Of a stretch of 64,000 nucleotides of DNA, positions 6,828 to 36,990 are shown piece by piece. The translations under genes and the position numbers were made by a program. Within the stretch, counting starts at the first letter, position 1, and each line of letters opens with the position of its first letter. The notes under the pieces are model-generated. The model saw only the letters and a program-made list of their open reading frames with translations, searched no databases and was not told where the DNA came from. Source of the stretch: Octopus sinensis (taxonomy: Eukaryota); NCBI RefSeq assembly GCF_006345805.1, contig NC_043020.1:7378001-7442000 (forward strand), given 5' to 3'.

Positions 6828-7118
6828 ATGGGCCACAAAAGATGGCATATAATTCTTGACTGGATCCTCTTACATATTCTCGTCTTCTCTTGGTGTCCAT
6901 CGACTTGTTGGGCTGAAATTGTGAAATGCAATGAACCATATGGCAGATATGAATTGGACAAGCGTCACGTCATGACCCACACCACCTACGGAACTGTTGA
7001 AGGTTTCTCTATACCTGTTCATAACACGCTTCTCAAAGACAGACGAGTGAACGTCTTTCTTGGCATTCCTTATGCCAGAAGACCCACCGACAAGGACCAC
7101 AAAGAATATCGCTTCAGG
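6828..7118 (+). CDS. Exon 1: signal peptide and N-terminus of the esterase domain
   Basis: AAAATGG start context; hydrophobic leader HIILDWILLHILVFSWCPSTCWA; TTYGTVEGF, VFLGIPYARRP, EYRFR; donor AGG|GTAAAA, phase 0. Confidence 0.92.
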
Positions 7119-10100: not shown

Positions 10101-13100
10101 ATGATGCGAATTCCAAGTGTGGTCGTACCATAGCTGTATACAGTTTTAAATAGATGGCTGGAGAGCGGCTAACAAAAGTCTTGCTGAGTGATGCCAAGAC
10201 ACCCTCGGCCTTCTTGACAATTTTAGAGATATGCTTTGTCCAACGCAATCTGCTCTAAGACCGTCTCTTTAATATTTAAACCAGTCATATCCGGTTCCAA
10301 ACTTTCTACATGTTTCAGGTAAACATGGCCAGGTAAACAAGCATAACATTTGGCAGAGTAATCAGAAAACACTAAACAGCTATTGTTGCTTGTCTTTGAC
10401 CCCGAATACTACTTCACTAAACCCCTACTTTACTCTGTTTGTCTTCTGACCCCTATCATATGTTTTTTTGTTAACTCCCTGTTTTTTTTACTATTTACCT
10501 CTTTCTTAGTTTTTGTTTTGACCTGACAAAGTGTGTTGTTAAATGTCCTCTTTTATATTCTCTCTCCGGAACAGATTCCCGACGAACCAGAATGGGATGG
10601 TTTGTGGAAGGCTACGAAATTCGGCCCTGCCTGTCCACAGGCTCCATGGTACGCCCGTGAAACTATCCCTGACTTTCATGAGATGGATGAAGACTGCCTT
10701 TACTTGAATATTTATGCTCCAAATGTAAGTTTGTCTTTACATTGAAATGTAGACGAGAGAGAGGTTAGCATGGCCCAGGCGAAAGGGCCTATAGATTGGA
10801 GAAGGACACCTTGACCACAAGGTGCTTGAGAGAGAGGTTAGCATGGCTCAGGTGAAAGGGCCTATAGATTGGAGAAGGACACCTTGACCACAAGGTGCTT
10901 GAGAGAGAGGTTAGCATGACCCAGGTGAATGGGCCTATAGATTGGAGAAGGACACCTTGACCACTAAGGTGCTTATCTCAGCTGTCAGATGACCATGGTT
11001 TTGTGGGGTTTCCACAAATAACGCTCAAAGGTTGCCCAATTTTAGGGGAAATTTTCATTATTGAAATTTGCTTTTGTTATTTCTCTTGTTTACATGTTTT
11101 TTTTTTATTTATGTAATCCTACAAGGTATCATCCTTTGCCATCCTCAATCGTTTTGTGAGCTTTTGAGGATAATAAAGAAAACATTATTATTATTATTAT
11201 TATTAGTAGTAGTAGTAGTAGTTGGTGGTGGTGAGCTGGCAGAATTGTTAGCACACTGGGCAAACTGCTTAGCATTTCATCTGCCTTCACGTTCTGAGTT
11301 CAAATTCTGCTGCATCCTTCCAGGGTCGATAAATTAAATACCAGTGAAACACTGGGGGCAATGTAATTCACTAATCCCTTCCCACAAAATTTCAGGTTTT
11401 GTGTCTATAATAGAAAGGATTATTATTATCATTAAGATGGTGAGCTGACAGAATCGTTAGCACACTGGACGAAGTGCTTAGCGGTATTTCGTCTGCCCCT
11501 ATGTTAGGAGTTCAAATTCTGCTGAAGTTGACTTTGCTTTTTATCCTTCCAGGGTTGATAAATTAAGTACCAGTAAAATACTGGGGGCAATGTAATTCAC
11601 TAATCCCTTCCCGCAAAATTTCAGGTTTTGGGCCTTTAGTAGAAAAGATTACTATTAAGATGGTGAGCTGGCAGGATAGTTAGCACACTGGACGAAATGC
11701 TTAGCGGTATTTCGCCCATCGCTACATTCTGAGTTCAAATTCTGCTGAGAATGATTTTGCTTTTTATTCTTTCAGAGTCGATAAATTAAGTACCAGTGAA
11801 ACACTGGGGTCTATTTAATCGACTTATCCCCTCCCCACAAATGACTGCCCTTGTGGCAAAATTTGAAGCCATTATTATTGCCTCTGCCTTAGGGAAAGTG
11901 GAAGGATTGTTTACAGTCGCATTTGTTTGTTTGTTTGTCCATGGACAAGATATCTCAAGAACCGCTGGATGGATTCAGATGAAACTTCCAGGAATGTTTG
12001 GCCTCGTGACCGCCACAAACTGATTAGATTTTGGGATCGATCCGGTACAATTTTTGAGAGAGTGGTTGGGTTCATTTTCAGTATTCTCATTGGTGAGAGC
12101 AGTCAAGTTTATTTCAGATATTCTCATTTTAAAAATCATCTCTGGTTAATCATTGAGAGGATGTTGGTATTGCCCTGGTGGAGGTTTGCGCTTTCTGAGT
12201 GCTCTTATTATTATTCAAATAAGAGGATGCACGACCCAGCGGTAAGGGCATTGTGCTTGCAATCATAAGGTTGTGGTTTCAATCCCTAGATCGGATGGTG
12301 TGTTGTGTTCTTGAGCAAAAAACACTTCATCTTGCGTTGCTTTGCTATCATGTGGACAGCTGATGTGTGGTGCACTGTGAACCTGTTCAAGCAACATTGG
12401 TTTGATGGACGGAATAAGCTAATGTTCGGCACATACATTTGATCTCTATGAAATAAGTCATTTGTGCAGGTCGTTCAGTAAAGAAGCTGAACACTCATCT
12501 GTCATCTTCAATAGGAGAGTCCGTCAGTATTATTATTATTAAGGCATCAAGCTGGCAAAATTGTTTGGCTGTCAAACAAAATTGGCCCCTTGAATTCTGA
12601 GTTCAAATGCTGCTGCAATCTGCTTTTCCTTTCATCCTTTTGAGGCTGGTAAGATAAAGTACGTAACAAATTGAGGGGTCAATAGTATTGACTAACTCCT
12701 TTTCCTCAAAACTTCTGGCCTTGTGTCAAAATTTATTGGGTTGGGACATAATTATTGCAGCTTTTTTTCAACAAATTTTATTCAACAAAAACATCTTTAA
12801 ATGACGGTCTGACCGTCTGCCAAGCAAATGGGAAGCAGTAATTGAAGTAGATGGTGAATATGCTCCAGAATAATCATTTAAAGATGTTTTTGTTGAATAA
12901 GATTTGTTGAAAAAAAGTTGCAATAATTATGCACCAACCCATTACTACTGCTACTACTAAGGGTAAAGATGCACCTTCGGTCAAGAATGACCATGGCATT
13001 GCACCTAGAAAGATGCCCACTGAGGCACAAGTCCAGGCAAGGTTGTTTATAGAAGACCAGCAGTTGCCCATGCATACCAGCCCGTGGTCGCCCTGCTTCT

Positions 13101-15165: not shown

Positions 15166-18100
15166 TTTTCTTTTCTTTAGGCTTCATCACAACAAGGTAC
15201 CACGCATCAAGATGGCTGGGGCCAAATCAACAGGCCACTTTACCCTGTCCTTGTGTTTATCCATGGTGGGGGATATGTCATGGGAACATCTCAGCAATTC
15301 CCTGGTTTGTTCTTGGCTGAACGCAATGTTGTTGTCGTCACAATGAACTATCGACTGAATGCCCTCGGTAAGTACTTCACAGGGGTCATATAATGGGGTG
15401 CAGTGTGGTTGGTGATGCGATTGTTGTTGTTTAACCCCAGGTTAAACTTTGAGTGGACTTATGGTCAAAGGTATTCCAGATGTGACAGTCCAGTTAATTA
15501 TTTTTCTGTTTGGAGGGAACTCAAGACTGCACTGTTCAATGTGCATCCTTCAGTGTGTGGTTTGAGGGAGGTTTAGTTGCCATTTCTAGCAGGTTGACTG
15601 ACCTCATAGAGGCCCTTTTGATGATTTAGTGGAGGAGTGATGTGGCATAATGGTGTAGGGCAGTGGTTCTCAACCGAATTCCATATGGCCCCTGAGGGTC
15701 TATATAAGAGTTTTGGGGATCCACATAACAATAGTAAACTGGGGTTCCACAATAGTATTCTAAGGGCTCCTGAAAAACTTTTGCTTTAGATATATGTATT
15801 GGTGTATGTTGCAAAGAAACAGCTGGGTTTCTTTCTCTAACATTTTACACAGTTCAACCTACACAAGGGAATGTGTGAAAAACAGAATAGGGATTTTGAA
15901 AGTGGTTTCTATAAAACTAGTTTTTAAACATCGAATGGCTATGGGGTCCACCAGAAAAAAATATCCAAAGGGGTCCATAGACATATAATAGTTGAGAATC
16001 CCTGCTTTAGATGTATGTAATGGTATGTATTGCAAAGAAGCAGCTGGGTTTCTTTCTCTAACATTTTACAGTTCAACCAACAGAAGTTAATGTGTGGAAA
16101 ACAGAAGAGGAAATTTGAAAGAAGTTTGAATAAAACTAATTTTTAAATGGCTATGGGGTCCACCAGAATAAAATAATAATCAGAGGGGTTCTTAGGTAAA
16201 AAAAAAAAAAAAGTGGTTGAGATGCCTTGGTGTAGGGGTATCGAATGATATAGTAGAGTGTGAAACGAACTTCGTGAGTGTGAATATCTTCTCTGGACCT
16301 TTTGGGGGTGCGAGAGGCAATCACTAGCCGTTGCTTTAATAATCCAGAATTCTACCTGTCAGAAACAACAAGACGCAGACGTAAAATATATATAAACTAC
16401 TTTATTCTCTAATGTGGTAACAGTAACAATAAGTGGTTATCTGGTATCCCTTTGGTATAAATGTGTCAGTGCTGAACCTTATCGCTGTAAAATAAGAAAG
16501 TGTTCAAATGCAAAACGACACTGGTCAAAGATGGCGTCCGGAACAGGGAGATGTGGTCTGCAACAATTTGGTTAAAGGCCTTTTGGTAAGGTGCTGCTAG
16601 AATCAAGTTCGGACGGAGAGAAAATATACGTGACCGTCGCCTTCAGTTGCTGCTGTCTCAAGTCGCTGCTTGCTGGACGCTGGTGGTCAACGTCTTACAA
16701 TCCCCTTGCCTCGGCTAACTGCTACGTAGGCAAAAGGGTTCTTCTTCCGGTGGTGAAAGCACCAACCCCGCACGCGCGAAATACAAATGGACGGTGCGCG
16801 AGCGCGCGCCGTTGTATAGGATCACTACAAGTGTTTTGGTGTAGTCAGTGCATTGTATATGGCTTTGTACAGTGTAGTATGGTCTGGAGCCAGAGATTTT
16901 GTGGAGAAATATGTTTACGATCAAATGAAACAACTCCCAATCTCTGGGAAGAATAGGACCAAAGCCCTAAGGGCAATATCAGAGACAGAGAAGAGATGTT
17001 CCATCTGGATCTGGTCGAAGAGGAATAAAATCGACCACCATTACTGATTTTTGTATTTTAATGCTAAGGGAAGTAACTCTGAATGAATCGTCGTGATAGC
17101 GTTGACGTTGCACCGCTACCATGGCAACCAGTTTTATTTCTTAAAGTATAAGTTTGAATGCTGAGTCAACGGAGGGGAGTCCCAGCTTGATGAACTCTCC
17201 AAGCGGTTTGAATGCACGAGTCTCCGATATCCAAATGGCTAAAAGGTATCAGCAGAAGGGTACCCAGGAGTCATGACCTGGGTGTAGCCTGGACTGCCTG
17301 AGTGGGGTTTCTTCAGAAAACTTCTGCTGTTCTGCCCCCTCAAGAGATTCTTACCTCTATAAATATCTCTCCTATAAGTTCGTTGACGGGAAACCTTTTG
17401 AATATGCATATCAACGCTCCCATTTTATTAACCCATTAGCGCCCATGGTCCTTTTCTTCGGACCAGAAGGATGATCCATCATATTTCTGCAACACCTGTA
17501 TTTTTCTGAGGTACCTGTTGTTAGTCATCAATTTTTTTTATATAGGCGCAGGAGTGGCTGTGTGGTAAGTAGCTTGCTTACCAACCACTTGGTTCCGGGT
17601 TCATTCCCACATATATATATATGACTGGCTTCTTTCAGTTTCTGTCAACCAAATTCACTCAAGGCTTTGGTCAGCCCGAGACAATAGTAGATGATACTCA
17701 CCCAAGGTGCCACGCAGTGGGACTGAACCTGGAACCATGTGGCTGGGAAGCAAGCTTCTTACCACACAGCCATGCCTGCACCTTTATATGTATAATATAT
17801 ATATATATATATATATTTATTTATTTATTTATTTATTTTGTTAAGGGCCAATACACTGGCCTGAGTGGTATTTCTTCTCTGAAGACCTGCTGTTCAGCTC
17901 TCGAGAGTTTTTTTACCACCAGAGTGCTATGTGGCATAGTCTGCAATGACAAGAATTGTAAGCACCCTGGACAAAATGCTTAGCTCCATTTTGTATGTCT
18001 TTATGTCCTGAGGTCAAGTTCCACCGAGGTCAACCTTCCCTTTCATCCTTTTGGGGTCAATGTAATCAACAAGTTCCCTGCAAATTTCAGGCCTTGTGCC

Positions 18101-21100
18101 TTTCGTAGAACGAATTATTATTATACTGTTCTTCCCCACCCAATTTCTGCAGTTGTCACCTATTCTTCCTTACTCTCCCATACTGTTCATCTCCCAATAT
18201 TATTCACCCTCTCAACCATTCCTTGTCTTTAACTATCTCTCATTCTCTCATACACCCTTGCAACCTATCTTCTCCCGCACTTCCTCTTCTTCTGTCTCCT
18301 CTAACTTCTACTCACCTTGTATCTTCAGGGTCTGCCCTGACCCCTCATTATCACTATTTTTATCCTGCCCATTCCCAACCTTTATTCCATAATGTGAAGT
18401 GACGTGTAGCCCCTCTACTGCAAGAAATCTTTTCTGGTTCCTTCTCTCACTGTAACCCTTCATCCCATAACAAAGCCGTCTCCCTCCCCACTGTACTCCC
18501 ACTCAGTTTAAGAGGATCTTAGTCTTAGACGTTACCCAGTAACCTCACTAGTGCTGGTGCTGCAGGAAATGCACCCGCTGTAGAGTGATTGGGATTAGGA
18601 AGAATATCTAGCTGTAGAAACCATGCCAAAATAGGCATTGGAGTGTGATGCTGTACTCGGACCTGTTGGATTCTGTCAAACAATAACTCTGAGCACCTTT
18701 TCAAACTCCACCCATCTAACACCCGTGGACATATTTACAAAGTAAGAAAACAGCACAGCTCCCATGACTTCAGGAAACATTTTTTCACGCTGAGAGTTGC
18801 TGAAGCATGGAACAAACTGCCACCGTCAGTTGCTAGTTGTCGGAGCACTGCATCCTTCAAAACTTCCATGCTTTCTGAGATTCGCCAACACTACACCTGA
18901 TTTTCTCCCCTCCATACACACGCTTAGGCATGGAACAAACTGCCACCATCAGTTGCTAGTTGTCGGAGCACTGCATCCTTCAAAACTTCCATGCTTCCTG
19001 AGATTCGCCAACACTACACCTGATCTTTCTCCCCTCCATACACACGCAAGCATGTATCTGACTCATACACTGTTCGCTTTCCAGACATTTGTACATTACT
19101 GCATATACTTTATATGCACTTTTGACAAGTTGTGGTGCACCTGAGCACTGTACAATAATTTCATTATATATTATATTATATTATATTATATCATCCGAGC
19201 CAAATTGAGGAGTAGGCTCAACAAACCAGTATGATCTTAGGCTCAAATGCATGGCCCCTACATCAGACTGTGATTAATGAAGAGAACATGCTGCGGTCTT
19301 CATCCTGCGGAGCACTGAGCATAGGCAATCCAATCGAGGGCTTTTTAATCCAGTTGTCACATGCAATTATTTATAGCTCTCTCTGCTGAGGAATTCACGT
19401 TTCCAAAGAAAGAATTATTTCACGTTCTTGAATTTGCCAAACTCTAACAATGTCAATAAGTCATGTTATTGTTTTTTTTTATATTGTTATTATTATTATT
19501 GTTATTTTTGTATTTCAGGTTTCTTGAGTACCGAAGACCAATTGGCAGCTGGGAACTATGGACTGTGGGACCAGGTGCGTGCACTGCTTTTCATCAAGAA
19601 TAACATTAGGAACTTCCAAGGCGACTCGAACAAGATCACCATTGCTGGTCATGATGCAGGAGCAGCAAGTGTCGGAATACATTTGCTCTCACCTCAGTCA
19701 CAAAGTAAAACATTATTATTATTATTATTATTATTATCATTATTATTATTATTATTGTTATTATTATTATTAAGGCGCAGGAGTAGCTGTGTGGTAAGTA
19801 GCTTGCTAACCAACCACATGGTTCTGGGTTCAGTTACACTGCGTGGCATCTTGGGCAAGTGCCTGTCGTATATATGTATATATCGACCCCGAAAAGATGA
19901 AAGGCAAAGTTGACCTCGGCGGAATTTGAACTCACAACGTAATGCAGACGCAATACCGCTGAGCATTTCGCCCGGCGTGCTAACGTTTCTGCCAGCTCAC
20001 CGCCTTATCAGAAAATTAAATACCAGCAGAGTACTGGAGTCGAGTTGCTCGACTAAAGGCAGTGCTCCAGCATGGCCGCAGTCAACTGACTGAAACAAGT
20101 AAAAGAGTATAAGATTTGAGGAGAGCAAAGATCTTTATATTTTTCGATGTCTGTTAATTGTTCCGTTTTTCTATATTTACCATTCCAGAACTGTTTGATT
20201 ATGCTATTATGATGAGTGGCTCTGATCGTAATGTGTGGGCCGTGAAGAGTGAAGGCAGCGCATCCCACTATGCCTACAACCTGGGATTGAACCTAGGATG
20301 CCCAACCAATGACAATTACCGTCTAATCAAGTGTCTCCGCCAGCGCTCAGCTATGGAAATCGTTAATGCTTCTTCCTGGATTCGTATGAAGGTAAGCTTT
20401 TCTTGGATGGGGTCATTTACTGGCTTTGAAACCATTTTTTTTTTTACTCCCTCACCCCTCATCATAAACGCTGACAGCATCCCTGTTGTTGATAATTATC
20501 TTCAAGGATTGCCATCTTCATTATCATACGATAACATTTATCCCCACTTAAAAGTGGGCATGGTGTTGGGTCACAGGATACTGTGTTATTTACAAAAGAT
20601 CCTCTCATGTGGACTTGTGGTGCATATAAGCACACGTGTATATATCGCTAGCAGGAGATAATCGTCCACTATTGCCACTGGGACTGCCAGATCATTTGAT
20701 TTCGGCCTTCCTAGGCCTTGTCAATGGCAGATACCCAAGGCTAGAGAAAGCAGTGATTCCTCTGTCAGCAATATACATAGAATCTCAATATCTCTGCAGG
20801 CAAATAGCCAGTGGGGGTTATTAAAAAACAATTGATCGCAACAGAAGCAGTGTTGATACCAGAAGATAATATTTATCCTCCACTTAAAAAAAGTTGTATG
20901 TAGTGTTGGAACACAGAAACCTGCATTACATGCCACGAGAAAACCTCTCATTTTGGACTTGTGGTGCATATAAGCACTTGTGTATATATCGGTGCTCCAG
21001 CATGGCCGCAGTCAAACGACTGAAACAAATAAAAGAATATCGCTTCATACACACACACACACACACACAAAGCCAGGTCAGTGTCGTCTCCCTTGCTGCC

Positions 21101-24100
21101 CATACCCCAAGCCCTTTTCTTCCGCTTCCTTTCACTTCTGCATGCACTGATTCAATGACTGTCTTATAGAGATATGATTACTCTTTTACTCTTTTACTTG
21201 TTTCAGTCATTTGACTGCGGCCATGCTGGAGCACCGCCTTTAGTCGAGCAAATCGACCCCGGGACTTATTCTTTTGTAAGTCCAGTACTTATTCTATCGG
21301 TCTTTTTTGCCGAACCGCTAAGTGATGGGGAAGTAAACACACCAGCATCGGTTGTCAAGCAATGTTGGGGGGGACAAACACAGACACACAAACACACACA
21401 CACGCACTCACATACATATACATATATACGACAGGCTTCTGTCAGTTTCCGTCTACCAAATCCACTCACAAGGCTTTGGTCAGCCTGAGGCTATAGTAGA
21501 AGACACTTGCCCGAGGTGCCACGCAGTGGGACTGAACCCGGAACCATGTGGTTGGTAAACAAGCTACTTACCACACAGCCACTCCTGCGCCTGTTCATTT
21601 CCCCTTATTTTTCCTGTTTCTCCATTTATCCTTTCTGAAGGAGAGCGTTTGCTTGAAACGTTAAGTACTTCAGTTTTTCCTGAGCATCAACCTAATACCT
21701 TGTCTTCATTGTTTTTGTTTTTCTTGTCACCATCTTCTCCACCATCAGCATTGACATGTCTATTATGTAATTTCTCTTCAGCCCGGAGAAGTTGGCAATC
21801 CATGGGGTCCCGTGGTTGATGGTGCCCTGCAGGGCAACATCCGCTCAATCCTTCCCAGACCTCCCAAGGAAATGAGGGAACAGAGAAGGTTTCAAAGGAT
21901 CAAAGTTTTGGCAGGAATCGTTGAAGACGAAGGAGCATATTTCATACGTAAGGAGATTCCTAGCTTTTCTTTGATTTTTGCTGCTCTCATTCACTTTCTC
22001 TCTCTCTCACCATTTCTTCTCCTTTATTTATTTCTCTCTCTCACTACAAAATAATCCTTTCTGCTATAGGCACAAGGCCTGGATTTTTTGTGGGGAAGGG
22101 GAAATTTATTACATTGACCACAGTACTTGCGAAAATTGAATTTTTACTCGCCAAATACTAACAAAAACAACAAAAATTATTCCTCAAAATAAAGACCATT
22201 ATTTTCCAAGACTTTCTACGAACTTTTGGGACAACCTTATATTTTATCAACCCTGAAAGGATGAAAGGCAAAGTCGACCTTGGTGGAATTTGAACTCAAG
22301 ACATAACAGTTGATAAAATACTGCTAAGCATTTTACCCAGCATGCTAATGATTCTGCCAGCTCACCACATTATTATTAATAATAATAATAATAATAATAA
22401 TGGTTTCAAATTTTGCCACAAGGGCAACCATTTTGGAGGAGAGAATGAGTTGATTTCATCAACCCCAGTGTTTTTACTGGTACTTGATTTATCAACCCCG
22501 AAAGGATGAAAGGCAAAGTCGACATCTGCAGAATTTGAACTCAGAACGTAGTGTTGGGTGAAATACTGTCAAGCATTTCATAATGCACGCTAACGATTCT
22601 GCCAGCTTACCTCAATAAGTGTTTCATCCAACATTTTAACGATTCTGCTAGCTTGTCACCTTAATAATAATAATAATAATAATAATAATAGTCCTTTCTA
22701 CTATAGGCACAAGGCCTGAAATTTGGAGGGAGGGGACTAGTCGATTGCATTGAACCCAGTACTCTACTAGTACTTAATTTATCAACCCTGAAAGGATGAA
22801 AGGCAAAGTCGACCTTGATGGAGTTTGAACTCAGAATGTAGTGATAGGTGAGGTACTACTAAGAAGTTTACCTGGCGTGTTACTGATTCTGTCAGCTCAG
22901 CGCCTTCAATAATCCTTTCTTCCTTCCTTCCTTCTATTGTTGTTTTCTTCCCTTGTTACTTCATTCCTTCCTTCCTTTATTCATTTCTTCTCTTCTTTCT
23001 CAGCCAATTATTTTGGACTTGAAGACGGAATACAACCGGCCGAGTTTCAAAACCTTATTTACGAATTTGTGGTGGAGAGGAACGCAACCAATCAAGAGAG
23101 GGCCTTGGAGAGCCTGGAATTTGAATACACTTACTATGAAGATCCCAAAAATATAACTGGTATTCGGAACCGTTCTATTGCAGTAGGTTCCATATATTCA
23201 TATATTTTTTCCTACAGAAATAATAGTGGTTGTGGGTTTGGTGGTGGTGGTTGTGGTTATGAGGGTTTGGTGGTTGTGGTTGCAGTAGCTGTGATTTTGT
23301 TATAAAATTAATTGAAAGAAAGACAATGTCTTTAAAAAAAATGGTAACGTAAGGGATAAAGCCCATTTCCTTTTTTTTTTTTACAGTGTCTATTTACTTT
23401 TTTAATGGATTATTCAGAGGAAGAAGGGCAGGAGGAGGAAGGAAGATTCTCTCAGACACAGACCTGGCCACAAGCTTGCAACAGAGTGGAACTTTTTAAG
23501 GGCACTCAAATATTGTTAAACTGAACAAACTGATAAAATTTAACCCCTAAAAATACTAGAACATCACTTCTGAAGCTTCCATGCAGTTTTGTTCCTAGTT
23601 GGGTTGATTAAAGTTTTGGTCAAACCAAGGCCATGGTCCAGCACCAAAGTGTCTGTGGAGAGATCAAATCCTAAACCATATGGTTAGGAACTGAATGTTT
23701 CAATCAAACAACGATGTTTGTACTTCTGCATTATCTTCATATATCTAGACATTTAACCATTTTTCATCTCCTTTGTTTTCATGCTGGAGCACTGCCCTTT
23801 TAGCCAAAGAAATCGACTCTGGAACTTATTCTTTGTAAGCCTAGTACTTATTCTATCAGTCCCTTTTACCGAACTGCTAAGTTACAGGAATGTAAACACA
23901 CCAACATTGGTTGTCAAGTGACAGTGGAGGGGCAAACACTGACACACACACAAATACATACATTCATATATATATTTAAACACATAAGAGATGGCCATAA
24001 TAGGACATCCGACTCACTAGAAGAGCAGATTTAAACTCCAAACCACTAACAGTTGTAATTCTGAAATGGAAAGAGAAATAAAAACGTTTACCCTTTCCTT

Positions 24101-24233: not shown

Positions 24234-27200
24234 AACACACACACAACACACACACACACATGATGGGCTTCTTTCAGTTTCTGTCTATCGAATCCACTCA
24301 CAAGGCCTTGATTGGCCCAAGGCTATAGTTGAAGACTCTTGCCTAAAGTGCCAGTATATTATGGTTGTATAACAGAATATGCTGTCCCTTACAAGTCATT
24401 AATATATATATATATATATTTTTTTTTGTTTTTTTTTTACCTCTGACTCCATACCTGTACATCTCTTGAAAATACCTTTCACTATCATCATCATCATCAT
24501 CATCATCGTTTAACGTCCGCTTTCCGCGCTAGCACGGGTTGGATGGTTCGACCGGGTCTGGGAAGCCAGGGGCCGCTCCAGTCTGAATCTGGCAGAGTTT
24601 CTACGGCTGGATGCCCTTCCTAACGCCAACCACTCCGTGAGTGGATTGGGTGCTTTTTACGTGCCACCTGCACAGGGGCCGGAGGGTCCGGCATCGGTCA
24701 CGATCGGTTAACGTGTCAGCGGCACGGGGCAACGAGGTCCGGGGTACTTTGGGGATCGGGGTACTTTGGGATCCAGGGTACTTTGGGGATCCGGGGTACT
24801 TAGAATGGGTAGGGGGTATGTGGAATTGCTGCAGAAAGCAGCCGGGTCTTGTAGTCACAGCATATCTCCAGAGATCTCGGTCTTCTTTCGCCATTCCTCA
24901 GTGAGGCCCAATGCTCTGAGGTCATGCTTGACTACCTCATCCCATGTCTTCCTGGGTCTACCTCTCCCCCTGATACCTTCAACTGTTTGGGAGTGGCACT
25001 TCTTCACACATCTCTCTTCATCCATCCGCAGCACATGACCATACCATCGCAAGCGTCGCTCTTGCACACCACATCTGATGCTTCTTATATCCAGCATTTC
25101 TCTCAGGATGCTTACACTCTGTCTTGCGTGCACACTGACACTACACATCCAGCGGATCATGCTAGCTTCATTTCTTTCAAGTCTACGCATGTCTTCTGCA
25201 GTCACAGCCCATGTTTCATTACCGTGAAGCATGGCAGTTCGCACACATGCATCATACAATCTACCTTTTGCTCTGAGGAGAGACCTTTTGTTGCCAGTAG
25301 GGGTAGGAGCTTTCTGAACTTTGCCCAGGCTATTCATTTTCTAGTGGTGATACTCTCTGTGCATCCACCTCCGCTACTAACTTGGTCACCCAGGTAGCGG
25401 AAACTATCAACTACTTCTAGTTTCTCTCCCTGGAGTGTGATGGAATCTGTTTTCTGAGTGTCTGTTGTGTCTATTGTCCCTGTGCATCTGCCGCACATGA
25501 AAGCTATCTTATCTGTTAATTTCCCTTTATGTTTGCTGCACCTCTTATGTGTCCATAACTTACATTGGGTGCATCTTATGGAGTTTCTACCTGTACCTTT
25601 CCTACAGGTTGAGCAGGGCCACCTACCCGAGGGGGTGTGTGCTGAGTACCTCTTGCTGCTTACTAATACTTTGGTCTTTGCTACATTTATTCTAAGGCCC
25701 TTTGATTCCAACCCTTGCTTCCACACCCGAAATTTCTCTTCTAGTTCGGGTAGTGATTCTGCTATGAGAGCTAGGTCATCGGCATAGAGGAGCTCCCAGG
25801 GGCATCCCGTTTTGAATTCCTCTGTTATTGCCTGAAGGACTATGATGAATAAAAGGGGACTGAGGGCTGAGCCCTGGTGCACACCTACTTCTACCCGGAA
25901 TTCTTCACTATATTCGTTGCCAATCCTAACCTTGCTGACAGCCTCTCTGTATAGAGCCTGTACAGCCCTTATTAGCCATTCTTCAATCTCCAGTTTCCGC
26001 ATCGACCACCAGATAAGGGAACGGGGAACCCTGTCAAAGGCTTTCTCCAAGTCTACAAAAGCTATGTAGAGGGGTTTATCTTTAGCTAGGTATTCTCCTG
26101 CAGTTGTCGGACCAGAATATAGCATCAGTGGTGCTTCTACCTGGTACAAAACCGAACTGCATTTCATCTAAACAAATTCTCTCCCTAATGAGATTGGTTA
26201 CGACCTTCTCTGAGACCTTCATCACCTGGTCCAACAGTTTGATACCTCTGTAGTTATTTCTATCTAGAGCATCACCCTTACCCTTGTAGCAGTTGACTAT
26301 GGTGCTGCTGCACCAGTCATTGGGTATGACTCCATTGTGAACTACCTGGTTTACAATGCGGGTGACTATGGCATAGCCCACATAGCCAGCTGTTTTAAGC
26401 ATCTCAGCAGTGATTCCTGATAGGCCAGGGGCTTTGCCTGGTTTCATATCCTTATTGCCTTATCTACAAGGGAGCTGTCTATTCGGGTAGCTGGTCCCTC
26501 TACTGGGTCAACATTTGGCAGGCTCTCCTCCTCCCATTCATTCTCCTCATTCAGCAGTCTTTCATAATGGCTTCTCCAAGCCTCTTTCTTTTCACTAGTA
26601 GTAAAAGCAAGTGCCCCATCATCCATGCGGACACATTTCTCTCCTATAACATTGCTATTTTCTCTGACACACTGTCTGTCAATCCGAAATACTTCAGCTC
26701 TTTGATCCTCGCGACGCTGGACATTGGCAAACTTCTTCTTTTCTGCTACATCTTTGGCAATGTATACCTGCCGCCCAGCCTCCCTTTTGGCTATCTGGTA
26801 CAGTTCCCTGCTGCCCCCATCCTTCCAGGCTTTCCAGGCCCGTCTCTTTTCACAGATGGCTTTATCTACTGCACTATTCCACCACCACGTAATTCTAGGT
26901 CTGGAAGGGACTTTGCACCATCCACAGACTTGGTCTGTGGCACTCAGCAAGCTGTCCCGTAGGAATTCCCAGCTACCTTCTATGTCTGACGTCTGAAGCT
27001 CCTCCTCCCTCTCATCAAATTTCTTGATGAGTATGTCCCTAACTCTTTATTTATTTATTTATTTTTTAGCTGATGTCCGACTATATGTTTGGAGCTGGTG
27101 TCGATGAAGTTGTGAAATACCATGCGAGATATAACTATACCTACTTCTATGTCTTCAAATACAAGTCACATTATGATTATCTTCCACCATGGAGAGGTGA

Positions 27201-27778
27201 GGCTTATTCTACTCTACGCTTTGGTTTCAGATTTTGGCACAAGGCCAGCAATCTCGGGGACGGCAGGTAAATCAATTGCATCAATGCCAGTGTTCATACT
27301 GCTACTTAGCATTTTACCGACCCCAAAAGGATGAAAGGCAAAGTCAACCTCAACGGAATTTGAACTTGGAACATAGCGATGGACAAAATACTGCTAAGCA
27401 TTTTACCTGGCGTGCTAACGATTCTGCCAGCTCAACACCTTATTCTACTCATCATATTGCAGAGAGACTTAGATGTTATTGTTGTTGTTGTTGTTGTTGT
27501 TGTCTATTCCACTTTGACCCTGATTCAACTGATCTGTATTCATGGGTATTGAAACCACAACCTACCTGTCTCCTGCTTTTGTTTTGTTTACTTTTGACAG
27601 GCTTAGTATACTTTGAGCTACATTACCCAGTATGGCATTTTTTTTAAGACAGTAGGATGTTTGAGGGATATTTCGCTGCTATTTCTAGCAATTATGCCAC
27701 ACATACACAAAAACACTCAGCCCTAAGATCTCCTTGGCAGCATGGAAAATCATGTTAAAACAAACAAATTAATGAATG

Positions 27779-27809
<31 letters not shown>

Positions 27810-30800
27810 GTGTATGCAGATGACATCAAGCTGTACCTTGAAATCAAGAGGACAGATCCTGTTGTCTACAGCTCTTTCCTGCAATCAGACCTGGACACAA
27901 TGCAGCGATGGATCACAGACTGGCAACTGAAACTGGCTGTGGACAAGTGTACCACCATGCATTTTGGGAGAAAAAACCCTGCGTCCACATACTCCCTCCA
28001 CAACACTGATATCAAGAAATCCTCTTGCAAGCGTGACCTAGGCATCACTGTCAGCAGTGATTTGCGTTGGACAAAGCATATCTCTAAAATTGTCAAGAAG
28101 GCCGAGGGTGTCTTGGCATCACTCAGCAAGACTTTTGTTAGCCGCTCTCCAGCCATCTATTTAAAACTGTATACAGCTATGGTACGACCACACTTGGAAT
28201 TCGCATCATCAGTTTGGAACCCCTATCTTGCTCAGAACATTGACCTTCTGGAATCTGTTCAGAGACGTGCAACCAAACGCATACCCTTCATCAGACACCT
28301 GCCATATTCTGAGCGCCTTGTTTCTCTGGGCATGGATTCACTGAAGCTCCGGCGTCTGGCGACGGACTTGGTAAACGCCCACAAAGTTGTCAACCACCTC
28401 ACCAATAACAACACTGAACACCTTTTTGATCTCCATGTGCCTAACACACGTGGACATGCCTACAAAGTCAGAAAACAACACAGCTCCCATGACTTTCGGA
28501 AACATTTCTTCACGCTCAGAGTTGCTGAAGCATGGAATAAACTGCCTGCGTCAGTTGTTGACTGCCATGACACTGCATCCTTTAAGACCCTCATGCTTTC
28601 CGAAATCCGTCGAAACTACACCTGATTATATATACACTTTCGATGAGTTGTAGTGCACCTGAGCACTGTATACAATGTTTATTATTATTATTATTATCAT
28701 GGACTCTCCTGTTGTTAGACAATGTATGAGGCAATTTCTTGCCGAACAACCACACAGATGATTTGTTTATAGTGATCAAATGTTTGTGTTGCACATAAGC
28801 TCTCTCATGACATTACCTGTACAGGTGCACCATGTGCCACATGTCAGATGACGAAATGATTGCAGAGCAACATGAAATGAAGTGCTTTGCTTAAGGACAC
28901 CATGCCATGCCATGCCCAGTCTAGAAAATGAACCTGTGATCTCGTAATCATGGATGCAACAGCCTAACCACTATGCTGCAAAGGAATAGGGATTTTAAAT
29001 GCAGGTAGATAACCTTATGAGCACTGTGATAGAATCTATAGTTGGCTAACCACGTCGAATGATGGGAAACATTTAGTATCATTTAGACTATACAATTTGC
29101 TAAATAAAAGTGTGGTTGCCCTTGCATACAGGCTCATCCCTTGCAACCCTCTATAGCTGAGCATCCCTAATCTTGTGGGCTGATAGGTGCTGCTGGTGCC
29201 TATTAAAAAGCACCCGTGCTGGTGTTGCATATAAAGCACCCAATACACTCTGTAAAGTGGTCAGCATTAGGAAGGGCACCCAGCTGTAGAAACCTTGCCA
29301 AAACAGACTGGAGCCTGAACAGCCCTTCAGCTGGTCAACTTCTGTCAAATTGTCCAACCCATGCCAGCATGAAAAATGGATGTGAAATGATGATGACGAT
29401 GAATTAGACTGTATTCCCTTCCATTGGTAAATCCAAGGTTTGCTTCCATGGATTTCATGAAGAATGGAGAGTATATTATCAAGACTTTAATTATTAAAGA
29501 ACAGACTGTTGCACATCTTCAAAATTTATTTAATAAAAAGCATTTTCCTCATATTACATTCCGACATGTTTCTGCTGAATATTTATTCAACAGAAATACA
29601 TGTCCTTAAGGTACTTTGATTTAGGCACAAATTCCATTCAGTGTACCACCTATTGCAAGCTATGGACGCACAAGAGGTACCAGTGCAATGAGGAAGTAAT
29701 GCTCGTATGTGGAGGATGTATGGAAGCTGTAAAGACCACGGATACGAAGAAAACTAATTTCTTTAAATGTCCCAGTGGGTCTCTGGAAGTTGTTATTTCT
29801 TGTGTTATATTAGTGTTCGTTCTTCCATGTGTGGAAGGAGACTTTTGCTGTTTTATTGAGTGTTGTGTTACGATGAAGGAATGATTATCTCCCTTGTGTT
29901 AACTGTCCACCAGGGGACTCCACATATACCATTAGGTATTCGTTGCATAACATCTGGGTTGAGTGGGAAGCCTGTTCTATTTGAGCTGTACTAGTGAATT
30001 AGTAACATTTTGCATAGGATGTGGGCTGTTCCTGGCAGCGTAGAGTGTTGAGAGTACTGGTATGGCTACTATATATTTTTTTAAAGCCAAAACAAGGCCA
30101 AGTTATAATAATAATACAAATTGATGGTTAGTACTATTACCTAGCCATAACTTAGTATTTCAATATTTCAGGGCCAGGAGCCTTTCTTCACAGAATTTAA
30201 GGAGAAAAAGTGTTGATAGCTGTTGCTTTTGATCTCTAGTTAGTATGAAGGGTTGCTTTGCATAGCTATAGTATCCAATAGTTTGTTTTGTTTTTATCAA
30301 ACCTAATTTTCCAATTATTATTATTGTTACAGTTTACACCATATTTTACATACTCTCTTTTACTCTCTTTTACTTGTTTCAGTCATTTGACTGTGGCCAT
30401 GCTGGAGCACCACCTTTAGTCGAGCAAATCGACCCCGGGACTTATTCTTTGTAAGCCCAGTACTTATTCTATCGGTCTCTTTTGCCGAACCGCTAAGTGA
30501 CAGGGACGTAAACACACACCAGCATCGGTTGTCAAGCAATGCTAGGGGGACAAACACAGACACACACACATACATATATATATATATACATATATACGAC
30601 AGGCTTCTTTCAGTTTCCGTCTACCAAATCCACTCACAAGGCATTGGTCGGCCCGGGGCTATAGCAGAAGACACTTGCCCAAGATGCCACGCAGTGGGAT
30701 TGAACCCAGAGCCATGTGGTTGGTTAGCAAGCTACTTACCACACAGCCACTCCTGCGCCTATCATAAATATTTCAATTTCAAGATCCTCAATATTTTGAC

Positions 30801-33774
30801 AGTTTTTTTTTTCTACTTCTTTTAGGGTAATATTTAGGTCAGAAGGGGTTTCAGTGTCTCCCAGTGTGAACGTGATTATTTTTCCAGTCGTTGATTATAT
30901 CTCTTTTACTTGTTTCAATCATTTGACTGTGGTCATGCTGGAGCACCGCCTCTAGTTGAGCAAATCAACCCCAGGACTTATTCCTTGTAAGCCCAGTACT
31001 TATTTTATCAGTATCTTTTGCTGAACCACTAAGTTATGGGGACGTAAACACACCAGCATTGGTTGTCAAGTGATGTTGGGGGGACAAACACAGACACACA
31101 TATACATATATACGACGGGCTTCTTTCAGTTTCCGTCTACCAAATCCACTCACAAGGCTTTGGTCGGTCCAAGGTTATAGTAGAAGACACTTGCCGAAGG
31201 TGCCATGCAGTGAGACTGAATCTGGAACCATGTGGTTTGTAAGCAAGCTACTTACCACACAGCCACTCCTACACCTATGAATGGTTTTACCTTGATTTCT
31301 TGATCAGTTTTGGCAATCATATTCTAGATGCCTGTGGCCCCAGGCTATTGTCAAGCACCCTGTTTTGGTACATATTTACATCACTTCTTGTCTGTTTTTA
31401 CATTGATATATTGGCATGTCACCCAGCGGATACAGCTGTCTACTTGATTATGTGTAGATGGGACAGTGAAAGTAAAATGCTCTTACCTTGAACAGAGATG
31501 GAAACTAGTACCCACCACAATCGGAGAAACATTGTACGAACCTTAATGTTTATTCTGCTTGACCTCTGGCTACACTCTACTCTCTCCCTGAATTCACTTC
31601 TCACAATTGAATACCCCAGAGGTTCTACAAAGAAAGAGGAAGATGGAATTCCCTGCTTCTTGATGAGACATCACTCCTTCCCTCGCTTCTGGTTCTGACA
31701 TCCCCCTTCACTCTTCCGCATTGCGTCTGTATATTTATTCACATTTAACAAGGGCTGAGCAGCTGGAAATGATGTGGTTAGCTGTCTTATTGTGCTGCTG
31801 AGGTCGACTTTGCCATTCATCCTTTTGTGGTCAATAAATTAAGTACCAGTGAAACACTGGGGTCAAAATTGCTGCTCTTGTGGCAGAATTTGAAACCACT
31901 ATTATTATTATTAAGGCAGTGAGCTGGTAGAATCGTTAGCATGCCAGATGAAATGCTTTGTGGCACTTTATCTGTCTGTGCATTCTGAGTTCAAATCCTG
32001 CTGAGGTTGACTTTGCGTTTCATCCTTTCAGGGTGGATAAATTAAGTACCAGTTGCATACTGAGGTTGATCTAATTGACTGGCCTCCTCCCCGCAAATTA
32101 CAGGCCTTGTGCCTATAAGTAGAAAGGATTATTATTAAGGTGGTGAGTTGGCAGAATGTTTGGCACACCGGGCTAAATGCTTAGTGACATTTTGTCTGTC
32201 TTATGTTCTGAGTTCAAATTCCAACAAGGTTGACTTTGACTTCGATCCTTTTGGGGTTGATAAAGTAAGTACCAGTCGAGCACTGGGGTCAATGTAATTG
32301 ACCAGTTTCCTCCCTCTTCAGTACAAAGGATTATTATTATTACCTCCACCTTAGCAAAAGTGGAGATATTGTTTTCAGTTGTGTCTGTTTGTTTGTCCAT
32401 GGACAAGATATCTCAAGAACTGCTGGATAGATTTGGATGAAACTTTCAGGGATCTTTGGCCTCATGACTGACACGAACTGATTAGATTTTGGGATTGATC
32501 TGGTACCAGACAAGGATTCTGGATTATTTTTCCTGTTTTTTTTACTTAATTTTTAAGAGCAGTCAGGTTCAATTTTAGTATTTTCATTTGTAAGAGCATT
32601 CGAGTTTATTTCAGATATTCTCATTTTAAAAATAATCTCCGGTTAATCGTTGAGAGGACGTTTGTGTTACCTTGACAGAGGTTTGCGCTCTCTGAGTGCT
32701 CTTGTTATTATTATTATTATTTCTAAATATATAAGCAAATAATAATGATCGTGAAATGATAATTCATCTGACTTCTTTTTTCCTTTTCTGTCGCAGGAGT
32801 TGCTCACGGTCAGGAATTGCAGTATGTGTTCGGCTTCCCTTACTTCTCCCGGTGCTACAGTAAGATCACTGGAGTCTACCCACGCCAAGACTACTCAGTG
32901 CACGACATTGAAATGAGTAATTACATGATGACAGTGTTCACCAACTTCACTCTACATGGGTTAGTAATTAATTTATCGCATTGTAATCAGGTGATGTCTC
33001 ACCTGCTATAACACCTGACTGATACAGACGTACTGGGCGATGATACTACGTTACCAACTGGTTGATCCCAGGTGACTGATGCCATCACAGCATTGCCATC
33101 ATCACCATCATCCTTATCATTGTCATAATCATCGTTGTCTTAATTTTTATCATTGTATTCATAACCATCATGATCATTATTCTTATATTTACCATCATCA
33201 TCCATATCTTCGTCATTGTCATCATCATCATCATCAGCATAATCAGCATCACCACCACAACCAACACCACCACCACCATCATCATTTGATATCAAATTTT
33301 CCATTCTTGCACGGATCAGATAGAATTTGCCCAGGCTGGTTTTCTAGGGCTGGATGCCCCTGTTGCCAGTTTCCAAGTAAGGTAATATTTCCCCCTAATG
33401 GCCAACACGTTTTTCATAGAAGACCAGAAACAAACAACATTGTTTCTCCGACGGTGATGCTCCTTTACAACTATGATGTGATGTCAAGACAAGATTGCAC
33501 TCACACACACACACTCCCATCACTATTGTTTAACCCTTTAGCATTTAAAGAAGCCACATCCTGCCAAAATATTCTTCCTGATATGAAGTGCTTTTCTCAA
33601 GAACACAATATATATATATATAAATCATAGGTGTAGGAGTGGCTGTGTGGTAAGAAGCTTGCTTATGAACCACATGGTTCCAGGTTCAGTCCCACTGCGT
33701 GGCACCTTGGGCTGACCAAAGCCTTGTGAGTGGATTTGATTGATGGAAACTGAAAGAAGCCTGTCGTATATATA

Positions 33775-33820
<46 letters not shown>

Positions 33821-34629: not shown

Positions 34630-36990
34630 GAGGAAATATGTGTACATTAGGAGTGAAGAGTTACATACATTTTATGAATTACAAATAAAAAAATGTAATC
34701 TAAATAAATTTATTAAACTTTTAGACCTTTCTGTGATTTTTGGGCCATGCTGTATAAATGCTAAAATTCAAAACAAAAAAGTCTTGGGATTGATTTGTCT
34801 ACTAAAATTCTTCAAGGTGGTGCTGCAGCCTAATGACTGAATCAAGTAAAAGATAAAAGATACAACAGGCTTCTTTTAGTTTCCGTTTTCCAAAATCCTC
34901 CCCATATTTATGTCACTATATCAAGTGACTTACATCGTTATTAACATTTTAAAACTTATTAGTTTTGTAAATTTAATTCTTTCTTTCTTTCCAAGTTTTG
35001 TTTTAATTTTTATTCATAATGTTCTTTTTTTTTTTTTTTTTGACCCTTCCAGGGCCCCAACTCCATCCAGAGATGATCTCAAATATTTCCGGGATGTTTT
35101 CTGGCCTCCGTTCCGATGGAACAATCAGAGCTATATGATCATTGACAACCATACAAGAGTAAGCTTCCAATATCGACAGCAGGAATACATGTTCTGGACG
35201 GATTATTTCCCTAAAGTCTCCTTAAGTAAGTGCTGTTGCGGTCTTCTGCTTATTCCCCCTCCTCCTCCTCCTTCTTTGTCATCTTGTTCTTCTTGTTGTT
35301 CTCCTCCTCCTCCTTCCACTTCTTTTTCTCCTCCCCCTTTGTCATGTTCTTCCTCTCCTTCTTTGTTTTCTTCTTCCTCTCCTTCTTTGTTTTGTTCTTC
35401 TTCCTCTCCTTCTTTGTTTTGTTCTTCCTCTCCTTCTTTGTTTTCTTCTTCCTCTCCTTTGTTTTGTTCTTCTTCCTCTCCTTCTTTGTTTTGTTCTTCT
35501 TCCTCTCCTCCTTTGTTTTGTTCTTCTTCCTCTCCTTCTTTGTTTTGTTCTTCTTCCTCTCCTTCTTTGTTTTCTTCTTCCTCTCCTTTGTTTTCTTCTT
35601 CCTCTCCTTCTTTGTTTTCTTCTTCCTCTCCTTCTTGTTTTGTTCTTCTTCCTCTCCTTCTTTGTTTTGTTCTTCCTCTCCTTCTTTGTTTTTCTTCTTC
35701 CTCTCTTCTTTGTTTTCTTCTTCTCTCCTTTGTTTTCTTCTTCCTCTCCTTCTTTGTTTTGTCTCTTCCTCTCCTTTGTTTTGTTCTTCTTCCTCTCTCT
35801 TTGTTTTGTTCTTCTTCCTTCCTTCTTTGTTTTGTGTCTTCTTCCTCTCCTCCTTTGTTTTGTTCTTCTTCTTCCTCTCCTCCTTTGTTTTGTTCTTCTT
35901 CCTCTCCTTTTTGTTTTGTTTTTCTTCCTCTCCTTCTTTTGTTTTGTTCTTCTCCTCTCCTTCTTTGTTTTGTTTTTTTTCTTCTTCCTCTCCTTCTTTG
36001 TTTTCTTCTTCCTCTCCTTCTTGTTTTTCTTCTTCCTCTCCTTCTTTGTTTTGTTCTTCTTCCTCTCCTTTGTTTTGTTCTTCTTCCTCTCCTTCTTTGT
36101 TTTGTTCTTCTTCCTCTCCTTCTTTGTTTTGTTCTTCTTCCTCTCCTTCTTTGTTTTGTTCTTCTTCCTCTCCTTTGTTTTGTTCTTCTTCCTCTCCTTC
36201 TTTGTTTTGTTCTTCTTCCTCTCCTTCTTTGTTTTGTTCTTCTTCCTCTCCTTCTTTGTTTTGTTTTTCTTCCTCTCCTTCTTTGTTTTGTTCTTCTTCC
36301 TCTCCTTCTTTGTTTTGTTCTTCTTCCTCTCCTCCTTTGTCATGTTCTTCCTCTTCTCCTTTTCCTCCTTTGTCTTGTTCTTCTTCCTCTCCTGTCTTGT
36401 TCTTCCTCTTCTCCTTTGTCTTCTCCTTGTTCTTGTTCTTCTTCCTTCTCCTCCGTCTTCCTGAAAAAGAATCTCATTTCTTTTTGTGTTAAATAATGGT
36501 TGTGTGGTTAAGAAGATCTCTTTGCAACCTGATCGTTTGAAGTTCAGTTCCCCTGTGCAAGAGTCTTCTACTGTAGCCTTGGGCCAACCAATGTCTCTGT
36601 GAGTAGATTTGGTTGACGGAAACTGAACAAAGCCCATTATATGTATCTTGCATATTAAAACTGAAAATGTCTGTCTGCCTGTGTGTCTATCGGTATGTCC
36701 TTGTTTTGTGCCAAAACGGCTTGACCGATTTTTCTTAAACTTCACACACACACATTGCTTATGTATCTGGCGAGGTTTTAAGTATAAATTGATTTCAAAA
36801 AAATGTTTGGGTAAACGGCGGGAGGAATAACATTTTGGGTGTAAGTGAATGGCAATAGTATTTATTTTAAGCTTCCAAGGGAAATAACCCATTCCCTCCT
36901 GGAAATAACCCATTCATTTTCAGTATGCTTATTTCTTAGTTTTTGAATTATTTTAGTTATTTACTCAATTTATATATATATATTTACTTA

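What the first reader, a model, noticed from the sequence alone, without database searches (positions are those of the whole stretch)
19647..19661. Cholinesterase-fold membrane protein with Asp at the nucleophile position and the rest of the active site intact
Seen: the elbow is G-H-D-A-G (GAT at 19653-5, Asp255 of the precursor). The oxyanion hole HGGG (15262), the acid Glu in EDEG (21929) and the His in GVAHGQEL (32805) are all conserved. GAT is two substitutions from any Ser codon, so one sequencing error cannot explain it. Known: type-B esterases use G-x-S-x-G; neuroligins typically have Gly here; epoxide hydrolases and haloalkane dehalogenases use an Asp nucleophile (GHDWG in soluble epoxide hydrolase) with an Asp-His-acid triad. 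Inference: this is either a non-catalytic adhesion/ligand-binding protein distinct from true neuroligins, or a cell-surface enzyme with Asp-nucleophile chemistry on a cholinesterase scaffold. A-to-I editing of this codon would give Gly (GHGAG), not Ser.
Basis: partly seen in the sequence, partly recalled or inferred. Interest (0 to 1): 0.72.

Follow-up and report, generated by a model that had tools for sequence, protein, structure and literature searches.

The report
Octopus gliotactin-like dead esterase
An octopus gene encodes a membrane-anchored, esterase-shaped protein with aspartate where the cutting serine should be; its relatives put serine, asparagine, glutamate or glycine at that spot, so it is likely a non-catalytic adhesion-type protein of a known kind, likely related to gliotactin, and not a new kind of enzyme.

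Summary
An 11-exon gene encodes a 661-aa type-B carboxylesterase-fold membrane protein (identical to RefSeq XP_029650497.1) with GHD255AG, HGGG, Glu389 and His500. Contigs from 8 of 8 runs laid read GAT, unedited. The enzyme reading fails its own test. Among 28 molluscan orthologues the elbow is Ser in 21, Asp in 4 and Asn in 3; other spiralian relatives carry Asp, Glu, Gly, Thr or Ser. Acid plus His survive whatever the elbow holds (44 of 52 Gly-elbow proteins; vertebrate neuroligin-2). A nematode relative keeps GHDAG with Arg for His. Epoxide-hydrolase motifs are absent. A moth protein with GGG/GHDAG/Glu/His is already in print as non-catalytic. The octopus has a separate true neuroligin; this gene's clade is best placed beside gliotactin/GLIT-1 (preferred, not significant). 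Verdict: a cholinesterase-like adhesion-type pseudoenzyme, a new member of a known kind. Residual interest: bivalve and gastropod orthologues mostly carry a full Ser triad, so the family may switch between enzyme and pseudoenzyme states.

The parts
6828..7118 (+). exon 1: ATG, hydrophobic N-terminal helix (likely signal peptide, not run through a predictor), start of COesterase domain
10575..10724 (+). exon 2 (CPQ ... EDCLYLN disulfide loop)
15181..15367 (+). exon 3, with oxyanion-hole motif HGGG (His175 codon at 15262)
19519..19704 (+). exon 4, with the nucleophile elbow
19647..19661 (+). elbow G-H-D255-A-G; GAT at 19653-19655
   Evidence: same motif in Sepia and Argonauta
20189..20391 (+). 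exon 5 (MSGSDR)
21782..21947 (+). exon 6, with triad-position Glu389 (codon 21929) and the basic EQRRFQRIK segment that aligns with neuroligin QQGEFLNYD
23004..23182 (+). exon 7 (FEYTYYEDP; YTYWP.P in most relatives and gliotactins)
27070..27196 (+). exon 8
32797..32959 (+). exon 9, with triad-position His500 (codon 32805)
35053..35225 (+). exon 10, end of COesterase domain
38204..38364 (+). exon 11: short stalk, transmembrane helix (about aa 634-652), 9-residue cytoplasmic tail ending QKDF, stop TGA

Best explanation
The gene encodes a spliced, single-pass membrane protein with a cholinesterase-fold ectodomain and Asp at the nucleophile position, and it is likely a catalytically dead, adhesion- or ligand-binding protein of a spiralian family that is likely the counterpart of gliotactin/GLIT-1. 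Shown: gene model, fold, residues, transcription with GAT, orthologue variation, a separate true neuroligin in the genome. Inferred: Asp255 is a tolerated structural residue, not a nucleophile. The elbow has a strained backbone conformation that Gly, Asn and Asp accept best (recalled alpha/beta-hydrolase geometry), and Ser(AGY), Gly(GGY), Asn(AAY) and Asp(GAY) are linked by single A/G transitions, so the two-step distance runs through states seen in orthologues. Glu389, His500 and HGGG would be kept for fold and pocket integrity, as in neuroligins. The ectodomain would act as a binding surface at cell contacts (barrier junction or glia-neuron contact, by analogy with gliotactin); with a 9-residue tail lacking a class I PDZ motif it would need a partner to signal or anchor.
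For: Elbow in the 28-row molluscan clade (support 100): 21 Ser, 4 Asp, 3 Asn; oysters with Asn keep HGGG, the acid and GVAHGQELQ; Patella keeps Ser with Met for His. Other spiralian rows: Asp, Glu, Gly, Thr, Ser, several without His. Acid+His kept in 44 of 52 Gly, 11 of 13 Asp, 3 of 4 Asn, 129 of 136 Ser rows (217 of 225 rows scored). Neuroligin-2 has GSGAG, Glu and His. The 12 Asp rows are rejected as one clade, p-AU 6.65e-07. P0050 has GHDAG, Asp and Arg, matching the 'two aspartates and an arginine' of C. elegans GLIT-1 (PMC5773152, passages). Moth EoblCXE19 is GGG/GHDAG/E+/H+/SP+ and classed as inactive (PMC5741679, Table 2 and passages). Tree holding the spiralian clade with gliotactin/GLIT-1 is the best found, 25.8 log-likelihood units above the neuroligin-sister tree; YTYWP.P and HSVV/HTSV/PQTxV tails are shared with gliotactins. 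All 8 Ser-bearing paralogue loci among the 10 fetched use AGT.
Against: No assay or localisation exists for any member. The neuroligin-sister tree is not rejected (p-AU 0.146; 0.248 against the free tree), and support for the gliotactin link is only 80-86 where it appears, with two deuterostome/cnidarian rows inside and no such clade. The full set HGG[GAS]+acid+His is more enzyme-like than in most dead members (4 of 13 Asp rows, 9 of 52 Gly rows, 124 of 136 Ser rows). Asp is kept in 3 of 3 cephalopod genera, although 23 of 31 columns around the elbow are invariant among them anyway. The short tail differs from insect gliotactin's long PDZ tail. Triad geometry and gorge access could not be measured (no coordinates returned).
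Confidence: 0.7

Rival explanations
1. A working hydrolase that uses Asp255 as nucleophile, with His500-Glu389 activating water to cleave the Asp-ester intermediate, as in epoxide hydrolases and haloalkane dehalogenases.
For: HGGG, Glu and His are intact with GHDAG in 3 of 3 cephalopod genera; core model confident (pLDDT 87, triad blocks 95 or more); GHDAG+Glu+His also in Lingula (oxyanion HGGE) and moth CXE19.
Against: Sister orthologues swap Asp for Ser or Asn with the rest unchanged; Asp/Glu rows lose His (Seison Tyr, P0050 Arg, Rotaria Arg); no HGXP at the oxyanion site, no G-x-G-x-S/T, no aromatic after the Asp (defining motifs per PMC5082902); no Abhydrolase_1/EH family hit in Pfam or NCBIfam; converting an esterase to an epoxide hydrolase needed a loop exchange and gave kcat 0.01 per s (PMC3962183, passage).
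Confidence: 0.04
2. A neuroligin paralogue that acts at synapses by binding neurexin.
For: Best PDB hits by sequence and fold are neuroligins; RefSeq name is neuroligin-4; spiralian+neuroligin clade is not rejected.
Against: A separate octopus locus groups with vertebrate neuroligins at 99; no class I PDZ tail; QQGEFLNYD, recalled as the neurexin/Ca2+ face, aligns with basic EQRRFQRIK, though the octopus true neuroligin also lacks it; no gliotactin structure appeared in the PDB hit lists to compete.
Confidence: 0.12
3. A non-catalytic protein that cycles in the ER/early secretory pathway as a cargo receptor or chaperone, retained by its short basic tail.
For: 22 of 29 molluscan rows end in an 8-9-residue tail with Lys/Arg at -3 and a terminal Tyr/Phe; Argonauta ends KKDF, a strict KKxx.
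Against: Only 1 of 29 fits strict KKxx/KxKxx; basic residues beside a membrane are expected anyway; 6 gastropod rows have longer tails and annelid and flatworm relatives end in PDZ-type motifs.
Confidence: 0.1
4. The Asp is an artefact: a sequencing error, a decaying pseudogene, or a codon fixed by RNA editing.
For: The O. vulgaris model is split into 304-aa and 242-aa pieces.
Against: Intact 661-aa ORF, GAT in 8 of 8 runs, Asp in Sepia and Argonauta; A-to-I editing can only give Gly.
Confidence: 0.02

Closest known systems
Gliotactin (insects) and C. elegans GLIT-1
   Same: Type I membrane protein with a dead cholinesterase-like ectodomain; Gly or Asp at the elbow with acid and usually His kept; shared YTYWP.P segment in most family members; best-scoring sister group; GLIT-1 has two Asp and an Arg at the triad (PMC5773152).
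   Different: Intact HGGG; 9-residue tail without PDZ motif; YTYYEDP in cephalopods; most bivalve and gastropod orthologues carry Ser; orthology not statistically secured.
Insect 'neuroreceptor' carboxylesterase CXE19 (Ectropis obliqua EoblCXE19)
   Same: Exactly GGG / GHDAG / Glu / His / signal peptide, classed as catalytically inactive (PMC5741679).
   Different: 610 aa; not placed in my trees, so orthology is untested; inactivity was inferred there from the missing Ser, not assayed in the passages read.
Neuroligins (NLGN1-4; octopus locus L011-L013)
   Same: Same fold (TM 0.87-0.90 by target), single-pass topology, acid and His kept in NL2.
   Different: Separate clade; Gly elbow; long PDZ tail; acidic QGEFLNYD face replaced by a basic one.
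Epoxide hydrolases and haloalkane dehalogenases
   Same: Asp at the elbow of an alpha/beta-hydrolase fold; GHD-x-G look-alike.
   Different: Different family (PF00135 COesterase); no HGXP, no GxGxS/T, Ala instead of an aromatic after Asp; Asp not conserved among orthologues.

Membership tests
Type-B carboxylesterase/cholinesterase fold (PF00135) | COesterase profile and fold over the whole domain | tested here: met
   PF00135 E 1.8e-130, residues 50-599; AF2 pTM 0.84, Foldseek top hits neuroligins and cholinesterases
Active serine carboxylesterases/cholinesterases | Ser in G-x-S-x-G | tested here: not met
   Asp255 in genome and in 8 of 8 runs
Active serine carboxylesterases/cholinesterases | Acid, His and oxyanion hole | tested here: met
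   Glu389, His500, HGGG
Cholinesterase-like adhesion molecules (CLAMs) | Cholinesterase-like ectodomain lacking one or more triad residues (PMC9958613) | tested here: met
   Ser absent
Cholinesterase-like adhesion molecules (CLAMs) | Single-pass membrane anchor with ectodomain outside | tested here: met
   One hydrophobic helix about 634-652, N-terminal hydrophobic helix, 9 N-glycosylation sequons; surface location itself not shown
Cholinesterase-like adhesion molecules (CLAMs) | No hydrolase activity; adhesion or ligand binding | not testable with these tools
   needs assay
Gliotactin/GLIT-1 | One clade with insect gliotactin and nematode GLIT-1 | tested here: inconclusive
   Best tree found, bp-RELL 0.82, but neuroligin-sister tree not rejected, p-AU 0.146
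Gliotactin/GLIT-1 | C-terminal class I PDZ motif as in insect gliotactins | tested here: not met
   Tail CRLHRQKDF; annelid and flatworm relatives do have one, tardigrade and some chelicerate rows do not
Gliotactin/GLIT-1 | Tricellular septate-junction localisation and barrier role | not testable with these tools
   GLIT-1 itself showed no gut-barrier defect (PMC5773152)
Neuroligins | Orthology to vertebrate NLGN | tested here: not met
   Octopus L011-L013 is the row that groups with NLGN (SH-aLRT 99); a deeper sister relation is not excluded
Neuroligins | Intracellular region with C-terminal PDZ-binding motif (PMC10084454) | tested here: not met
   9-residue tail, no class I motif
Neuroligins | Neurexin binding | not tested
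   Only the recalled interface segment was compared by sequence
Epoxide hydrolases / haloalkane dehalogenases | Asp nucleophile conserved across the family | tested here: not met
   4 of 28 molluscan orthologues have Asp
Epoxide hydrolases / haloalkane dehalogenases | HGXP oxyanion motif | tested here: not met
   HGGG; the only HGxP (HGAP) lies at residue 550, after the domain's His
Epoxide hydrolases / haloalkane dehalogenases | GXSmXS/T motif | tested here: not met
   No G-x-G-x-S/T match; only Gly was tried as the small residue
Epoxide hydrolases / haloalkane dehalogenases | Two cap-domain tyrosines (EH) or halide-binding Trp (HLD) at the active site | not testable with these tools
   No coordinates returned; nucleophile+1 is Ala, not Trp/Tyr/Phe

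The most novel reading that the evidence does not exclude
The cephalopod protein is a real cell-surface hydrolase that runs Asp-nucleophile chemistry on a cholinesterase scaffold, in a family whose bivalve and gastropod members run the same pocket with Ser: a natural Ser/Asp nucleophile switch between orthologues.
Probability: 0.04. Interest if true: 0.85.

Novelty: new member of a known kind. Interest (0 to 1): 0.27.

Why it matters
As found, it matters modestly. It corrects an annotation (not a neuroligin-4, likely the cephalopod member of a spiralian gliotactin/GLIT-1-like family) and names a candidate barrier-junction or glial contact protein in cephalopods. The family is a handy natural series for pseudoenzyme evolution: near-identical pockets with Ser (clams, snails), Asn (oysters), Asp (cephalopods, Lingula), Glu (rotifers, bryozoans) and Gly. 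If Asp/Glu is the older state, clams and snails regained a full Ser-Glu/Asp-His triad, a rare pseudoenzyme-to-enzyme reversal (my estimate about 0.2 that Ser was regained and is active; interest about 0.55). If the Asp form were itself active, it would be the first Asp-nucleophile cholinesterase-fold enzyme I know of (recalled, not established by search).

Tried and rejected
No RNA holder listed on record: all runs are contig sets of guessed type, so no editing frequency or expression level could be read. Triad distances and gorge access: the structure tool returned no coordinates. Deep placement: AU tests did not separate gliotactin-sister from neuroligin-sister; the careful IQ-TREE run was not finished, so trees are FastTree and quick IQ-TREE. 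Direction of the Ser/Asp change is open: parsimony counts 5 Ser/non-Ser changes among 40 spiralian rows and 3 residue changes among 21 molluscan rows and cannot tell gain from loss. No squid, Nautilus, chiton or scaphopod orthologue was named. Schistosome cholinesterases of PMC6919630 (passages) could not be tied to the trematode members of this clade. PMC10138715 (passages) gave nothing on motifs. Paper searches: neuroligin+GHDAG 1 paper; mollusc carboxylesterase phylogeny with neuroligin and triad 0; neuroligin+octopus+cholinesterase 3; gliotactin+lophotrochozoa+septate junction 1; cephalopod+neuroligin+gliotactin 2; none is about this gene by title, listing or the passages read. No paper on restoring the neuroligin triad was found. 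Earlier scan findings: none. A regular expression mis-hit 5 of 33 molluscan rows; their elbow residues were taken. No complex was predicted.

Full report
Observation. The elbow GGT CAT GAT GCA GGA is at 19647-19661; HGGG, the Glu of EDEG and the His of GVAHGQEL are at 15262, 21929 and 32805. Eleven exons between 6828 and 38364, all with GT-AG introns, give 661 residues with Asp255, Glu389 and His500. This is letter for letter P0239, RefSeq XP_029650497.1 'neuroligin-4, X-linked [Octopus sinensis]'. Among the 40 candidates scored in the own genome only this locus matched at high identity. Of 24 runs listed I laid 8, from 7 study codes. In the 4 the contigs pass from exon to exon over exons 3-7 (exon 3 on a separate contig in one run), so they are spliced. 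In all 8 the codon reads GAT, and the only other letter in exon 4 is synonymous 19664 A>T. Contigs hide rare variants, so minor editing is open; it could only give Gly.

Anatomy. Pfam finds COesterase over residues 50-599 (E 1.8e-130) and no epoxide-hydrolase or dehalogenase family; NCBIfam gives only weak lipase-type hits below cut-off. AlphaFold2 on a 41-row alignment gives pLDDT 87, pTM 0.84; the Foldseek hits shown are neuroligins, cholinesterases and one carboxylesterase. There is an N-terminal hydrophobic helix, nine N-glycosylation sequons, one transmembrane helix near 634-652 and a 9-residue tail ending QKDF. No coordinates were returned, so triad geometry and gorge access are untested.

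Orthologues. Sepia and Argonauta proteins have GHDAG, Glu and His. A search with the Sepia protein, a profile search and a 225-row FastTree define a molluscan clade of 28 rows with support 100, cephalopods sister to gastropods plus bivalves. Its elbow residue is Ser in 21, Asp in 4 (three cephalopods and one unnamed partial row inside the gastropods) and Asn in 3 (oysters); five further partial rows left out of the tree all have Ser. Oysters keep HGGG, the acid and GVAHGQELQ with Asn. Patella keeps Ser with Met for His. The clade nests among brachiopod (GHDAG), annelid (GTDSG, GDGAG, GDTAG), nemertean (GHGSG, GSEAG), bryozoan (GHEAG), rotifer (GHEAG, GHDAG) and flatworm (Gly or Ser) proteins, several lacking the His. 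IQ-TREE trees of 73 and 71 chosen rows, with the five elbow columns removed, recover the molluscan topology.

Is an intact remainder unusual? No. Of 217 rows scored out of 225, acid and His are both kept in 129 of 136 Ser, 44 of 52 Gly, 11 of 13 Asp, 3 of 4 Asn and 3 of 8 Glu rows (rows are related, not independent). Mouse neuroligin-2 has GSGAG with Glu and His. Adding a small-residue oxyanion hole is more selective (124 of 136 Ser, 9 of 52 Gly, 4 of 13 Asp, 3 of 4 Asn). Asp at the elbow is recurrent: 24 of 488 domain matches (near-duplicates included), and 12 Asp rows are rejected as one clade (p-AU 6.65e-07). In print, moth EoblCXE19 has GGG, GHDAG, Glu, His and a signal peptide and is treated as inactive (PMC5741679: passages, section with Tables 1-2, one supplement passage). 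C. elegans GLIT-1 has two aspartates and an arginine at the triad (PMC5773152, passages; its supplementary figures are images I could not see). The unnamed P0050, sister to Strongyloides proteins, shows GHDAG, Asp and Arg; calling it GLIT-1-like is my inference. There the same motif persists with no His to work with.

Against Asp chemistry. Epoxide hydrolases are marked by HGXP, two cap tyrosines and GXSmXS/T (PMC5082902, passages). The protein has HGGG, no G-x-G-x-S/T and Ala after the Asp. [quoted passage not shown] Conservation of Asp in three cephalopods says little: 23 of 31 columns around the elbow, and 350 of 649 overall, are invariant among them.

Why Asp. Inference with recalled background: the nucleophile sits in a strained turn that Gly, Asn and Asp tolerate best, and these, with Glu, make up nearly all non-Ser states seen. 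All 8 Ser-bearing paralogue loci among the 10 fetched of 14 matches use AGT. AGY, GGY, AAY and GAY differ by single A/G transitions, so Ser and Asp are joined through Gly or Asn, both present in relatives.

Which family. A separate locus on contig C19 (L009, L011-L013; elbow GHGHG) groups with vertebrate and amphioxus neuroligins at SH-aLRT 99, so this gene is not the octopus neuroligin. The spiralian clade joins gliotactins, nematode GLIT-1-like and tardigrade proteins at support 80 and 86 (with two outside rows within), and not. The tree holding them together is the best found, 25.8 units above the neuroligin-sister tree, which is not rejected (p-AU 0.146). YTYWP.P in most members and gliotactins against YTDW in neuroligins, and HSVV tails in annelids beside HTSV/PQTxV in gliotactins, point the same way. 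Only P0216 is named Gli by its source; the other gliotactin labels are mine from the tree. Reviews describe gliotactin and its kin as catalytically dead adhesion molecules (PMC10084454, PMC9958613, passages). The Atlas returns only COesterase clusters, first a mostly molluscan one.

Open point. Whether cephalopods lost Ser or clams and snails regained it is not settled. Parsimony gives 5 Ser/non-Ser changes among 40 spiralian rows. GH[DE]AG in brachiopod, rotifer, bryozoan and nematode relatives favours an old acidic state; easy repeated loss of Ser favours the opposite.

Verdict. Real, expressed and correctly read, but most likely an ordinary cholinesterase-like pseudoenzyme: new member of a known kind, interest 0.27. 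Asp-nucleophile catalysis is not excluded without an assay (about 0.04). Five paper searches aimed at this gene or family found no description of it; most subscription papers are outside the library.

Noticed in passing
P0121-P0145 (molluscan orthologues): 21 of 25 bivalve and gastropod rows have Ser with HGGG-type hole and acid, most with His, nested among relatives that lack Ser: a possible regained catalytic triad.
   Followed up: partly
P0165, P0172, P0173, P0177, P0180, P0186, P0192, P0228: Trematode members of the same clade have GESAG, Glu and His with long PDZ-type tails, while Dicrocoelium and Opisthorchis felineus rows have Gly.
   Followed up: partly
window 38335-38364: Tail ends [KR]-x-[KR]-D-[YF] or similar in most molluscan orthologues; Argonauta has a strict KKxx. 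Could be an ER-retrieval/export or class III-like PDZ signal.
   Followed up: partly
P0001, P0240 (Octopus vulgaris records): The O. vulgaris gene is annotated as two pieces; the first leaves the frame after residue 295, within exon 5. Assembly error or a null allele.
   Followed up: no
L009, L011-L013 (G000:C19:5891500-6034300): Likely true octopus neuroligin, elbow GHGHG, with the triad His absent in the alignment.
   Followed up: partly
L003, L004, L006-L008, L010, L016, L017 (G000:C10:55.84-56.15 Mb): Cluster of at least eight largely intron-free carboxylesterase genes; the six fetched have Ser (AGT) elbows.
   Followed up: no
L002 (G000:C8:55327244-55330426): Paralogue exon with GHSAG and the same exon boundaries as exon 4, the best non-self hit (54%); the rest of the gene was not found.
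   Followed up: no
window 27759-28622: LINE reverse-transcriptase remnant (RVT_1, E 9.4e-08) in intron 8; related fragments near 18649-18897.
   Followed up: partly
window 33787-34619, 35347-36452, 38765-39301: Near-perfect 398-bp tandem duplication (98%), a 27-bp minisatellite of about 41 copies and a 264-bp duplication (97%); the near-perfect pairs may be assembly artefacts.
   Followed up: no
window 52400-52499: Assembly gap of 100 N.
   Followed up: no
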